DNA of 30,285 nt from a virus (Duplodnaviria; Heunggongvirae; Uroviricota; Caudoviricetes), in IMG/VR virus record IMGVR_UViG_2703718804_000003. The stretch is one strand, 5' to 3'. Positions 9,001 through 12,000 of this stretch are shown in pieces; the stretch's first letter is position 1, and each line of letters starts with the position of its first letter. Made by a program: the position numbers.

Positions 9001-12000
9001 TCGGGCGAACATATGAGAGTTTGTGTTTGATTTTCACACGGTTCTCATCAAACGGTTCGATTTCCAGGTTGAGCGAGACCTTACCTTTGGTTTTCGTGTT
9101 CATCACACCGGAAGCGACTTCACTGAGAACTGCGCCGATTTTGGTTTCAAATACGCCGCCGTCCAGCTCCCCGATAAATGCCTGCACATCAGTACTGCGT
9201 TCGCTAGCCATTTGCTGCTCCTCATCATATCGACCCTGCAAGGTCGGTTGGTTTCTCCACAAAACAGAGAAGAACACCTGCGGTGCAGCCGCCCGGATGG
9301 ATTGGGTTATGAGCCCGTCGTCCGGTGATGCTCTTCTCTGTTTTGTAAAAAGAGCGGTACCAGCCGGAAGCAAGTGTACAAACTGGTACCGCCAGGACTA
9401 CACACAGCATAAAGTTGTGGTGCCGGGTGCCTCCCGGTGCCTGGCGAAGGTTGCACACCAGACGGGTGGGTATCCACAGAAGGTCGACTGTCAGCCTCAA
9501 CCTTAACCCGCGTGCGCTGAGCCGCATTCACCACAACGCTAAGGATTCTCTTTGGTTGAAAATACTTGGCTGTTATGTGCCTGTCTTTTCACCACTTCAG
9601 GCTCGGTGGTATCTTGGTGTTTTCATATAGCCAAGAAGGAAATAGTTATGACCAAAGAAGAAAAAATTCTTTATTTATTCCAACTATCGGTTAAGACTCA
9701 CACTGCATATCAGACTGCTGCCATGACATCAGATAAAAATTACAGTACGTCAGAAAACCCGATAGACGACATAAGCAAGCTTTACGATAAGTTCGAAGCA
9801 CTACTCGATAAAAAGTTTGCTGAGGCTGGGCTTGAGTGATTGTTGAATAATCGACAAAACCCAACTTAAATTTTCGTCAGTGGGCTCGATGCCATGTGCG
9901 GTGAGCTCACTTTTCAAAACTCCAAGTAATTCAGAGCTAATTTTCAATATATCTGCTTGATTTCTAACTATTCCCACTTTTTCCTCCCTTGGTCTACGCG
10001 CGGTCATGTTTTACGCCCAAACGACTTCACAGTTATTGTTTAAAATCTGGACTTTCATTTCATACACCTGCTTTAACATGAGTGCCTAGTGGCACAACAT
10101 GACTCAACGAATCATCCTGGACTTCATATGCCCCAGGCGGCTACTTCGTGGGTGTCCTGCCTGTTCGTTGTCTTAACACCTTTAAGTTGTAGTTTAGTTG
10201 TGGTTTTGAATGTTGTCAACAACTTTATGTGGTTTGAACGAGTAGCCAAGGAGTGCAAGGATTATCAAAAAAAGGAGGTTGTATGGAAGACGCGCTTTAC
10301 GCTTTTAATTACACACAGAACCGGGACAAGTTATTTGCTAACTTGATTAGCATCATTGATGGAATCATTGCAGATGGAGTTGTCCGTGAAGAGGAGGTTC
10401 TTTACTTAGATACATGGTTACTTGAAGCAAAGCAGATTATCAATAATGGAGTTATAAAAAGTCTATCTGCTCGGGTGTCGGATATTCTTGCGGATGGAAT
10501 AATCACATCAGAAGAACGTGATGACCTTAAAAATAGCCTTCTCCAAATACAGAGGGAAATTCTTGATATCCCTGAAATTTATTTTTACTCCAAGGATGTA
10601 GATGTCCATTTACTTAATGGACTATGTAAAGGATTAATTGCTGATCGGAACTTAACTCAAGAAGAAATAAGATATCTTAATTGGTGGCTTGAGCAAAATG
10701 GAGCTTTGAAGAACAACTACCCAGGAAAAAAACTTTATGCACTTGTAAAGGAAATTCTTAAAGATGGTGTTATTACTGAAGATGAGAGTTTAACTCTACA
10801 TAAGGCATTAGTAGACTTCACAGGATGTGACTTGGAAAGTGGGGTGGTGGATGGTTTGGCGACCAGGCTGCCTATTGATGTAGGGGCTTCGATAGAGTTA
10901 GAGGGTAAAACCTATTGTCTTACAGGCACTTTTGTTGCAGGAAAGAGAGCCGTAGTTGAAAATTTGATTAAAAATGCTGGTGGGAACATCAGTAGTGGAA
11001 TTACTCAAAAGTTGGATTTTTTAGTAATTGGGACGCTTTCCTCCCGTGATTGGAAATTCTCTAGTCACGGAAGGAAGATCGAAAAGGCTATATCTTATAG
11101 GGATGATAATGGTGCAAAACTTAAAATTATTTCTGAAGAAATGCTTTTCGATGCATTACCAAGTTCGCGATGACCAGAATACCCTACCTATAACATGAAT
11201 TCTGGCTCGTCTATCTTCAAAGGTGAGTATTTCATCTGGGTACTCATCTTTGTTGAAGCTTCTAAGAATCAAGCCACCGTCAGGTAAGTTGATAAGTATT
11301 TTAACCCTTAGCAATATACCATCTCGTACGGCATAAAGATCGCCATCACGAATAGGAACGGTTTGAGAAATATCAACGGCAACAAGATCTCCATTATTGA
11401 GAACCGGTAATAAACTGTTCCCCCATATTTGTACGATCTTGGCATTAGATGCACATACGCCAGATTTTCTCAAATCTGCTCTTCTTAACGGAAACCAGTC
11501 AATAGCTGATTCAACTATTTCAGCCAGACATCCGTTACCTGCCGATAACTCGACATCTAAAACAGGAATGTTTACGAAAATATCGGGGTCTAATGCGGTG
11601 CTTTCTGCTTCTTTTACAACAAGATCAGGTATGGATGCGTTGTCTTCAATACCAAGTTGTAACCACTTTTGTGATACACCTAAAACTTTTGCAATTTCTT
11701 TAATTTTGCGCGGTTGTAGAGTTTCGCCATTCTCTATTTTTGCTACAGATTGTTGTGAAAGTCCAATTTTTTCAGCTAGTTGAGCTTGGCTCATGCCAGC
11801 TTTCTCTCTACCTATCTTTAATCGTTCTGCCAGTGTTTTCACAACATATCCCTCTCTTTTTTGATGAGGTTACAACTTTATGTTTTAGCTTTCCAACACC
11901 TAAAAGTTGTGGTAAAAGTTGTTAATGTTGTATTCTTGCAGCTCGTAACAACTTAACTACCAAAAAAGGAGAAAGCTATGACACCTGAGCAATTAGCCTT

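What the first reader, a model, noticed from the sequence alone, without database searches (positions are those of the whole stretch)
9648..9977. Convergent, 3'-overlapping pair of small ORFs at the head of the leftward operon
A 63-aa plus-strand ORF (9648..9839) and a 58-aa minus-strand ORF (9801..9977) overlap by 39 nt at their 3' ends, and both have good SD sequences. The minus-strand ORF is the first one downstream of the predicted pL but is not arginine-rich, so it is not an N-like antiterminator. The plus-strand ORF would be transcribed antisense to pL transcripts. The segment is AT-rich relative to its flanks, consistent with a separately acquired module. The arrangement could be a small toxin/antitoxin-like or antisense-regulated pair, or one of the two ORFs may be non-coding.
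Basis: inference. Interest (0 to 1): 0.5.

Follow-up and report, generated by a model that had tools for sequence, protein, structure and literature searches.

The report
Conserved convergent small-gene pair after pL
Two tiny genes that face each other and overlap at their ends, just after the early leftward promoter of an SfII-like prophage, are both real protein-coding genes always inherited together; one is missing from public annotations and their function is unknown.

Summary
ORFs 9648..9839 (+, 63 aa) and 9801..9977 (-, 58 aa, GTG start) overlap by 39 nt, and each has a Shine-Dalgarno sequence. Both are real genes. Across 10 diverged cassettes each shows purifying selection only in its own frame (pN/pS 0.26 and 0.38, no stops). 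In about 20 distinct lineages of Enterobacterales prophages and phages, relatives down to about 35-45% identity always occur as the same convergent pair, with 15-45 nt of 3' overlap.

The pair is a swappable cassette (about 9614-10016). It sits between a conserved promoter-like element for the plus gene and a conserved pL leader. SfV and 569R4/SfIV carry unrelated ORF pairs with the same layout in this slot.

The minus protein is homologous to the C-terminal domain of longer early-left proteins, and that domain always travels with the plus gene. Both proteins are acidic helical hairpins with no Pfam, NCBIfam, PADLOC or PDB match. They are not N-like and do not belong to a known toxin-antitoxin family.

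GenBank (SfII) and RefSeq annotate only the plus gene. My best guess is inferred, not shown: a reciprocally expressed, antisense-coupled pair, with plus made in the lysogen and minus made after induction. Function is unknown.

The parts
9579..9615 (+). Conserved non-coding element upstream of the plus gene. It reads as a sigma-70-like promoter: -35 TTCACC at 9588-9593, a 16-nt spacer, and an extended -10 TGgTATCTT at 9607-9615. It also contains two interleaved dyads, GCCTG/CAGGC and ACCAC/GTGGT.
   Evidence: Pairwise identity is 78-81% across 14 loci, where the plus ORF itself is only 60% identical in DNA and 52% in protein. The left part of the element is also present upstream of unrelated plus-strand ORFs in SfV and 569R4. 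The promoter reading is inferred from sequence. The consensus scan did not list it; by my own count it matches 8 of 12 hexamer positions, below the scan's threshold of 9.
9648..9839 (+). Plus gene, 63 aa, in PHROG family phrog_2605. An acidic helical hairpin. RefSeq annotates it as hypothetical protein WP_000159356.1 and GenBank as SfII_36.
   Evidence: pN/pS is 0.26 in its own frame with 0 stops, against 0.46-1.94 and 23-35 stops in the other frames. Variable columns by codon position are 28/19/46 of 51. AlphaFold2 predicts helices 3-27 and 38-59 with pLDDT 77.5.
9801..9977 (-). Minus gene, 58 aa, GTG start, in phrog_15476. An acidic helical hairpin. It is not annotated in SfII GenBank or in RefSeq E. 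coli genomes. It is homologous to the C-terminal domain of longer early-left proteins.
   Evidence: pN/pS is 0.38 in its own frame with 0 stops. Variable columns by codon position are 23/11/35 of 37. AlphaFold2 predicts helices 7-27 and 34-53 with pLDDT 74. Long-form homologues of 92-201 aa carry the domain at their C-terminus. Only the plus gene is annotated.
9801..9839 (.). The 39-nt 3'-3' overlap of the two coding regions. Codon position 2 of both frames coincides.
   Evidence: An overlap of 15-45 nt is retained in every intact relative examined. Only 1 of 8 shared second positions varies.
9983..9988 (-). Shine-Dalgarno GGGAGG of the minus gene, 5 nt before the GTG.
   Evidence: Read directly from the sequence.
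10011..10079 (-). 22-codon stub ORF (MLKQVYEMKVQILNNNCEVVWA*). It is the retained 5' end of the SfV orf33-type gene (phrog_3195) that the cassette replaced.
10017..10167 (-). Conserved pL leader and right flank of the slot. It is shared by the window, SfII and SfV even though their immunity regions differ. Its promoter-proximal part is also found in ST64B and in a Buttiauxella prophage.
   Evidence: There is no Rfam match and the fold z-score is -0.67.
10191..10219 (-). pL-like promoter, TTGACA-17-TAAACT, flanked by operator-like ACAAC-N5-GTTGT sites that also occur between cI and cro.

Best explanation
SHOWN.
- The two ORFs are both genuine protein-coding genes.
- They form one portable two-gene cassette (window about 9614-10016). 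The cassette sits in a hypervariable slot at the head of the early-leftward (pL) operon of SfII/SfV/CPS-53-like lambdoid prophages.
- The 58-aa minus gene is the first substantial gene on the pL transcript.
- The 63-aa plus gene points the opposite way. It is preceded by a non-coding element that reads as an extended -10 sigma-70 promoter and is more conserved than the gene itself.
- The minus protein is the free-standing form of a domain that elsewhere forms the C-terminus of longer early-left proteins with different N-terminal domains. That domain is always accompanied by a plus-family gene in the same convergent, 3'-overlapping position.

INFERRED.
- No intrinsic terminator lies between the two promoters, which face each other about 570 bp apart. 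Their transcripts must therefore be antisense to one another, and expression should be reciprocal.
- In a repressed prophage pL is off, so the plus gene can be expressed. After induction or infection, strong pL transcription makes the minus protein and suppresses plus expression through polymerase collision and RNA pairing.
- Both products are small acidic helical hairpins, so they are more likely to bind proteins than nucleic acids.
- I propose they are a cognate effector/antagonist pair. The plus protein would be a lysogen-expressed accessory factor, for example one that excludes or restrains phage development. The minus protein, or the minus-type C-terminal domain, would bind or counteract it when the phage itself goes lytic.
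For: Both genes are coding.
- Frame-specific purifying selection is seen in the non-overlapping parts of each ORF.
- Protein alignments show conservative substitutions at 64-98% identity.

The genes are obligately linked.
- All 99 cassettes extracted from the roughly 100 loci fetched up to that point carry homologues of both genes in the same arrangement.
- So do the distant relatives: Edwardsiella phage EPP-1, Serratia, Kluyvera, Klebsiella, and metagenomic loci with long-form or highly diverged minus proteins.

Domain evidence.
- The minus domain is fused behind phrog_1744 or phrog_1363 N-terminal domains, and the plus partner is still present.
- In 569R4 a phrog_1744-only protein is paired with a different plus-strand gene.

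Cassette nature.
- The alignment with SfV and SfII defines the boundaries.
- Alternative convergent pairs occupy the same slot in SfV and in 569R4.

Promoter-like element.
- It survives in Buttiauxella, where the plus gene is intact.

Other support.
- No terminator-like site was found between 9640 and 10010.
- Both proteins are acidic and lack arginine richness.
- Lysogen-expressed genes set antisense to lytic operons with their own promoter are a recognised signature of prophage accessory loci. P22 sas/sieB is a precedent for antisense control by early-left transcription (PMC7067206, read).
Against: - There are no expression, interaction or phenotype data for either gene.
- Adjacent genes are co-inherited anyway, so linkage alone does not prove a functional partnership.
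- The promoter is only a sequence match, 8 of 12 hexamer positions plus the TG.
- A second version of the upstream element (L048, L114) lacks an obvious -10 and has two hairpins instead. The element might therefore act as RNA, or as an operator, rather than as a promoter.
- Either partner can decay while the other stays intact. The plus gene is frameshifted in L052, L053 and L094/95. The minus gene is a pseudogene in Buttiauxella L110. Neither is strictly needed to tolerate the other.
- AlphaFold models have only moderate confidence, and a helical hairpin is not diagnostic of any function.
Confidence: 0.35

Rival explanations
1. The two genes are functionally independent accessory genes that happen to be packed tail to tail. 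The minus protein would be an early host-takeover or counter-defence factor. The plus protein would be an unrelated moron. The 3' overlap would be compaction with no regulatory role.
For: - Phage genomes are compact.
- The slot is a mosaic hot spot holding different gene sets.
- Either gene can be lost alone.
- There is no family assignment for either protein.
Against: - The same two families stay together in the same orientation and with an overlap from 98% down to about 35-45% identity. This holds across different immunity types and even in a Rac/Qin-like context.
- The minus domain keeps the plus partner whatever N-terminal domain it is fused to.
- At least two, and probably three, unrelated cassettes in the slot share the convergent-overlap design.
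Confidence: 0.3
2. The module works mainly at the RNA level. Rightward transcription from the conserved element acts as a brake on the pL operon, through transcriptional interference or RNase III-type cleavage of paired 3' regions. This would resemble lambda oop against cII. The plus peptide would be secondary.
For: - The promoters are convergent, with no terminator between them.
- The upstream element is more conserved than the plus coding sequence.
- The overlap is retained in all relatives.
- The oop and sas precedents are described in PMC7067206.
Against: - The plus ORF is under clear purifying selection at the protein level (pN/pS 0.26, no stops), so the peptide matters.
- Frameshifted plus alleles keep the DNA. 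That fits an RNA role, but they are rare.
Confidence: 0.15
3. The pair is a toxin-antitoxin-like addiction or abortive-infection module. One small protein is toxic and the other, or its antisense transcript, neutralises it.
For: - It is a small two-gene module on a mobile element.
- The genes are tightly linked.
- The geometry is antisense.
- Several independent frameshift alleles affect the plus gene while the neighbouring minus gene stays intact, as is seen for decaying toxins.
Against: - No hit to any toxin, antitoxin or defence model.
- The genes are convergent, not a co-directional autoregulated operon.
- Neither protein is hydrophobic or membrane-like: GRAVY is -0.56 and +0.21, and both are predicted to be amphipathic hairpins.
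- The putative antidote (minus) sits behind the repressed pL, so it would be absent in lysogens.
- The minus gene is a pseudogene next to an intact plus gene in Buttiauxella.
Confidence: 0.1
4. The minus protein is the phage's N-type (or Nun-type) antitermination or termination factor, because it occupies the first position after pL. The plus ORF would be incidental.
For: Position only: it is the first substantial ORF downstream of pL. The pL leader is conserved.
Against: - pI is 5.2, there is 1 Arg in 58 residues, and there is no arginine-rich motif.
- In a Rac/Qin-like relative the minus-type gene is the fifth gene of its operon, not the first.
- ST64B has the same leader but no ORF pair in the slot.
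- SfV and 569R4 carry unrelated proteins at this position.
Confidence: 0.03

Closest known systems
P22 sieB / esc with the sas antisense RNA
   Same: A gene expressed from the prophage lies in the early-left region and is set against pL transcription. An RNA from the pL side is antisense to it and switches its expression. The phage thereby escapes its own exclusion factor. The sas/sieB description is in PMC7067206. The details of esc are from my own recollection of Ranade and Poteete, 1993.
   Different: - There is no sequence relationship. SieB is Pfam PF14163, and neither protein here hits it.
- Here the antagonist would be a separate convergent gene, not an internal start in the same gene.
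- No exclusion phenotype is known.
Lambda oop RNA versus cII (convergent 3' overlap)
   Same: Convergent transcription units have complementary 3' ends, giving post-transcriptional down-regulation of an early regulator (PMC7067206).
   Different: oop is a non-coding RNA of about 77 nt. Here both strands encode conserved proteins, and the overlap lies inside both coding regions.
Type I and type II toxin-antitoxin modules
   Same: A small, tightly linked two-gene module on a mobile element. Type I also shares the antisense geometry.
   Different: - No toxin or antitoxin family hit.
- Not a co-directional operon.
- Neither protein is hydrophobic.
- Either partner can be lost on its own.
Lambda N / HK022 Nun (first gene of the pL operon)
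   Same: The position immediately downstream of pL and its leader.
   Different: The protein is acidic, only 58 aa, and has no arginine-rich motif. The gene is replaceable by unrelated genes, or by nothing, in sister phages.
PHROG families phrog_2605, phrog_15476 and phrog_1744 (all 'unknown function')
   Same: - The plus protein matches phrog_2605 (E 1.4e-33).
- The minus protein matches phrog_15476 (E 7e-50).
- Long-form relatives combine phrog_1744 with phrog_15476.
   Different: These are sequence clusters with no described function. The pairing, the convergent overlap and the domain fusion are not recorded in them.
Face-to-face promoters in temperate phages (for example coliphage 186 pR/pL transcriptional interference; from my own knowledge)
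   Same: Convergent promoters whose relative strength decides which transcript prevails.
   Different: The promoters here would be about 570 bp apart, with two coding regions between them. Promoter activity has not been measured.

Membership tests
PHROG phrog_2605 (plus) and phrog_15476 (minus) | Full-length profile match | tested here: met
   Plus: E 1.4e-33 over residues 1-63 of 69 profile positions. Minus (68-aa reading): E 7.4e-50 over 1-68 of 68. Both families are listed as unknown function.
Type II toxin-antitoxin | Match to a known toxin or antitoxin family | tested here: not met
   No Pfam, NCBIfam or PADLOC hit at E <= 0.1 for either protein. A profile search of PDB sequences found nothing relevant.
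Type II toxin-antitoxin | Co-directional bicistronic operon with a shared promoter | tested here: not met
   The genes are convergent with a 3' overlap in every relative examined.
Type II toxin-antitoxin | Toxicity of one partner, relieved by the other | not testable with these tools
   This needs expression experiments. Indirect evidence: either partner can be inactivated while the other remains intact.
Type I toxin-antitoxin | Small hydrophobic membrane-active toxin | tested here: not met
   GRAVY is -0.56 (plus) and +0.21 (minus). Both proteins are charged and acidic, and both are predicted to be amphipathic two-helix hairpins.
Type I toxin-antitoxin | Non-coding antisense RNA antitoxin overlapping the toxin mRNA | tested here: not met
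   The antisense partner is itself a conserved protein-coding gene on each strand. Antisense transcripts are expected from the geometry, but this has not been measured.
Lambda N-type antiterminators | N-terminal arginine-rich motif and a strongly basic protein | tested here: not met
   The minus protein has pI 5.2, charge -2.4 and 1 Arg in 58 residues. The Arg-containing extension of the 68-aa reading (MTARRPREEK) is not conserved in homologues.
Lambda N-type antiterminators | Cognate nut site (boxA plus a boxB hairpin) in the leader | tested here: inconclusive
   The leader is conserved, but there is no Rfam match and the fold z-score is -0.67. A GUGCC-ACUA-GGCAC hairpin exists, but it does not resemble boxB.
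SieB superinfection exclusion (Pfam PF14163) | Match to the SieB family | tested here: not met
   No Pfam hit. A true SieB gene lies next to the pair in locus L104, so it is a neighbour and not a homologue.
Ribbon-helix-helix repressors (Arc/Mnt/CopG) | N-terminal beta-strand, two helices with a G-x-S/T turn, and a basic DNA-binding face | tested here: not met
   I considered this family because of a pattern resemblance in the minus protein. However, AlphaFold2 gives a continuous helix 7-27 with no strand, the protein is acidic, and there are no Pfam or PDB profile hits.

The most novel reading that the evidence does not exclude
The slot at the head of the pL operon in SfV/SfII/ST64B-like prophages may hold a previously undescribed class of two-gene switch modules. 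Each would consist of a lysogen-expressed effector, driven by a shared and highly conserved rightward promoter/operator element, and a cognate early-lytic antagonist. The two would be wired together by convergent, 3'-overlapping transcription. At least three unrelated cassettes (phrog_2605+15476, phrog_3311+3195, phrog_5286+1744) would be interchangeable versions. The phrog_15476 domain would be a dedicated binding or neutralising module for the phrog_2605 protein.
Probability: 0.2. Interest if true: 0.65.

Novelty: new variant of a known kind. Interest (0 to 1): 0.4.

Why it matters
- A conserved gene is systematically missing from public annotation. The 58-aa minus gene is absent from the SfII GenBank record, and in the 60 E. 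coli genome records listed in RefSeq only one hypothetical protein is annotated under the cassette; in ARS-C301 that protein is the plus gene.
- The locus gives a clean, small and genetically tractable case for asking how convergent overlapping genes are coordinated in a temperate phage.
- If the effector/antagonist reading is right, the slot would be a source of new exclusion or counter-exclusion pairs. It would also be an example of lysogenic and lytic programmes hard-wired against each other by antisense transcription.
- If the reading is wrong, the result is still useful: two uncharacterised PHROG families are shown to be an obligate pair, and one of them is shown to be a separable C-terminal domain.

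Tried and rejected
- Family searches for both proteins and for the long-form relatives found nothing beyond PHROG families of unknown function: Pfam, NCBIfam, PADLOC, PDB sequence profiles.
- Foldseek of the minus model against PDB gave no match with E <= 0.001. The best hits were prion-protein helices, which is meaningless for a two-helix hairpin. I ran no further search on the plus model for the same reason.
- The idea that the two proteins are paralogues was rejected: hhalign probability is 0.6%.
- The ribbon-helix-helix idea for the minus protein was rejected.
- The RNA-structure reading of the upstream element stays unresolved. An SD-sequestering hairpin is predicted, and one compensatory change is seen in L110. 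But the window fold z-score is only -0.96, the pairing is absent in L009 and L120, and the sequences are too similar for a covariation test.
- I looked for a bidirectional terminator in the overlap and found none. The fold z-score there is -2.16 and there is no U-tract.
The scan with the plus alignment found only three species representatives.
- E. coli K-12 CPS-53 was checked as a possible model host. It lacks the immunity region and the cassette.
- None of the 60 listed carrier strains is one I recognise as a well-studied model strain.
- Literature searches found no paper on these genes. One search failed on a term that was too short.
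Full report
**Context**

The window is a lambdoid prophage of the SfII/SfV/CPS-53 type.
- A cI-like repressor lies at 11156..11842 (minus strand) and a cro-like gene at 11978..12226 (plus strand).
- A BRCT-domain gene lies at 10283..11173 (plus strand).
- To the left is the early-left operon: yfdP at 8849..9211, yfdQ at 7959..8783, then yfdR and further genes.
- A pL-like promoter, TTGACA-17-TAAACT, sits at 10219..10191 on the minus strand.
- It is embedded in operator-like ACAAC-N5-GTTGT sites. The same sites recur between cI and cro.
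- The region is 99.5% identical to Shigella phage SfII over 9400-10169.
- The cassette itself is 100% identical to E. coli ARS-C301.

**Check of the observation**

- The plus ORF runs 9648..9839 (63 aa). AAGGA lies 7 nt before its ATG.
- The minus ORF is open from 10007 to 9801.
- The 58-aa start is the better-supported one.
  - Homologues start at that position with ATG.
  - The upstream residues differ completely between relatives, while the purine-rich SD is kept.
- The ORFs overlap by 39 nt (9801-9839).
- Between pL and the minus ORF lies a 22-codon stub (10079..10011). It is the 5' end of the SfV orf33-type gene.
- The segment is AT-rich relative to the GC-rich left flank. It is hardly AT-rich relative to the right flank or the immunity region.

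**Both ORFs are genes**

- I took 10 diverged cassettes with no indels and ran Nei-Gojobori counts on the parts of each ORF that do not overlap the other.
  - The plus ORF frame gave pN/pS 0.26 with no stops. The other five frames gave 0.46-1.94 with 23-35 stops.
  - The minus ORF frame gave pN/pS 0.38 with no stops.
- Variable alignment columns follow the coding pattern. By codon position 1/2/3 the counts are 28/19/46 of 51 for plus and 23/11/35 of 37 for minus.
Neither frame is an accident of the other.

**The two genes travel together**

- Protein searches found relatives of each gene at 64-98% identity.
- All 99 cassettes extracted from the roughly 100 loci fetched up to that point, from IMG/VR, NCBI and Logan, carry homologues of both genes in the same convergent arrangement.
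- An exhaustive profile search with the minus protein found more distant relatives.
- I looked up seven of these (P0031, P0033, P0034, P0035, P0036, P0041, P0042). An eighth, P0039, is the EPP-1 protein. Each has a plus-family gene convergent to it and overlapping its 3' end by 15-45 nt. A ninth, P0030, sits on a 698-base contig that cuts its convergent plus-family partner short.
- Plus-family identity falls to 35-48% in those loci.
- The hosts span Escherichia/Shigella, Atlantibacter, Klebsiella, Enterobacter, Kluyvera, Serratia and Edwardsiella.
- The module also occurs in a Rac/Qin-like prophage. There it lies upstream of dicB and is not the first gene of the operon.
- It is rare: 63 of 5426 complete E. 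coli genomes and 3 species representatives in GTDB.
- Exceptions occur in both directions.
  - The plus gene is frameshifted next to an intact minus gene in L052, L053 and L094/95, and in several database proteins. Some of these may be homopolymer sequencing errors.
  - The minus gene is a pseudogene with in-frame stops next to an intact plus gene in a Buttiauxella prophage remnant.

**Cassette and slot**

- Against SfV, identity runs up to 9613 on the left and resumes at about 10012-10017 on the right.
- In between, SfV has orf33 (98 aa, phrog_3195, leftward) and an unannotated 81-aa rightward ORF (phrog_3311). They overlap at their 3' ends by 83 nt.
- In phage vB_EcoS-569R4 the slot holds a 144-aa rightward gene (phrog_5286). 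A 68-aa leftward gene (phrog_1744) overlaps it by 29 nt.
- SfIV annotates a rightward gene of the same length in the slot. I did not check its sequence or look for a leftward partner.
- ST64B has the flanks but no ORF pair.
- So the slot is hypervariable. At least two, and probably three, unrelated cassettes share the same convergent, 3'-overlapping layout.

**Domain relationship**

- The 58-aa minus protein corresponds to the C-terminal domain of longer proteins of 92-201 aa.
- Their N-terminal parts belong to phrog_1744 or phrog_1363.
- phrog_1744 on its own is the leftward gene of the 569R4 cassette.
- The phrog_15476 domain therefore keeps the plus-family partner whatever is fused in front of it. 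The phrog_1744 domain does not.
- This is the best indication that the minus domain and the plus protein belong together functionally. Physical adjacency remains a confound.

**Upstream element**

- Immediately left of the plus gene lies GCCTGTCTTTTCACCACTTCAGGCTCGGTGGTATCTT (9579-9615).
- Together with the short leader down to the SD, it is 78-81% identical across 14 loci. In those loci the plus ORF is 60% identical in DNA and 52% in protein.
- It reads as TTCACC, a 16-nt spacer, then TGgTATCTT, an extended -10 promoter. That would start transcription about 25 nt before the ATG.
- The -10 part is the most invariant. It survives in Buttiauxella, where the dyads have decayed.
- The element also contains two interleaved 5-bp dyads.
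- A second version in L048 and L114 has two separate hairpins and an SD-pairing stretch instead.
- I could not decide between a promoter plus operator and a structured leader.
- No terminator-like site lies between this element and pL. Rightward and leftward transcripts must therefore be mutually antisense across both genes.

**What the proteins look like**

- AlphaFold2 with shallow alignments predicts two-helix hairpins for both proteins, with pLDDT 74 and 77.5.
- Both are acidic, with pI 5.0 and 5.2.
- They are not related to each other.
- There are no hits in Pfam, NCBIfam, PADLOC, PDB sequences or Foldseek/PDB.
- They are therefore unlikely to bind nucleic acid. The minus protein is not N-like.

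**Interpretation**

Shown:
- Two conserved genes form one portable cassette.
- The plus gene has a conserved promoter-like element of its own.
- The geometry forces the transcripts to be antisense.
- The minus domain co-occurs with the plus gene.

Inferred:
- Expression is reciprocal, with plus made in the repressed prophage and minus made once pL fires.
- The two proteins have an effector/antagonist relationship.

The nearest precedents are P22 sieB/esc with the sas antisense RNA and lambda oop/cII (PMC7067206). There is no homology to either. Toxin-antitoxin membership fails every testable criterion. I put about 0.35 on the coupled reciprocal-pair model and 0.3 on two independent genes packed together. 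The RNA-brake, toxin-antitoxin and N-like readings get less.

**Annotation point**

The SfII GenBank record and the RefSeq record of E. coli ARS-C301 annotate only the plus gene. The 60 listed E. coli records each show one hypothetical protein under the cassette. The 58-aa minus gene is missed.

Noticed in passing
window 9345..9559 (-): An element resembling the STnc100/PasD family of prophage sRNAs: Rfam RF02076, 42.1 bits against a gathering score of 47, E 5.6e-7, matching the full model length. It lies on the pL-transcribed strand between the cassette and yfdP. The same hit occurs in phage 569R4. It is absent from other loci that carry the cassette, so it belongs to the left flank and not to the pair. 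ORFs called over it (SfII_35, and a 'frameshifted hypothetical protein' in PGAP) are probably spurious.
   Followed up: partly
window 10128..10167 (-), within the leader 10017..10184: The first part of the pL leader (CGAACAGGCAGGACACCCACGAAGTAGCCGCC on the transcribed strand) is conserved in SfV, SfII, ST64B and a Buttiauxella prophage, although their repressors and operators differ. It has no Rfam match and the fold z-score is -0.67. It could be a nut- or put-like site, or a terminator for rightward transcripts. This is unresolved.
   Followed up: partly
window 10283..11173 (+): A 296-aa protein with a BRCT domain (Pfam PF00533, phrog_3989) sits between pL and cI. It is transcribed towards cI and overlaps the cI 3' end by 18 nt. 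It has a weak PADLOC hit to the candidate defence protein PDC-S48 (E 2.5e-7). In locus L104 a SieB gene lies next to the pair on the corresponding side. The BRCT gene is therefore a likely lysogen-expressed defence moron.
   Followed up: partly
window 10011..10079 (-): A 22-codon stub ORF identical to the start of SfV orf33 (phrog_3195). It ends in a stop where the cassette begins. It is a scar of cassette replacement and might still be translated as a leader peptide ahead of the minus gene.
   Followed up: yes
L002 (SfV) 3748..3993 (+); L112 (569R4) 1779..2213 (+) and 2185..2391 (-): Sister phages carry unrelated gene pairs in the same slot with the same convergent 3'-overlapping layout. The SfV rightward 81-aa ORF (phrog_3311) is not annotated in the SfV record.
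   Followed up: partly
L052, L053, L094/L095 (plus ORF); L110 2680..2950 (minus ORF remnant): Independent 1-nt deletions disrupt the plus ORF in several loci while the minus ORF stays intact. One of them lies in the A6 run at codons 6-7. In Buttiauxella the reverse is seen. Some of the plus-ORF frameshifts could be homopolymer sequencing errors.
   Followed up: partly
L114 3001..3775: In a Rac/Qin-like prophage the pair lies downstream of three small genes (one a DUF1391 protein) and upstream of dicB. The minus domain there is fused to a phrog_1363 N-terminal domain (201 aa). In E. coli K-12 Qin the sRNA gene dicF lies immediately upstream of dicB (this point is from my own knowledge).
   Followed up: no
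window 9638-9661 and 9952-9975: A 24-nt imperfect inverted repeat (71% complementary) links the start regions of the two genes (GGAAATAGTTA.. in both). It may be chance.
   Followed up: no
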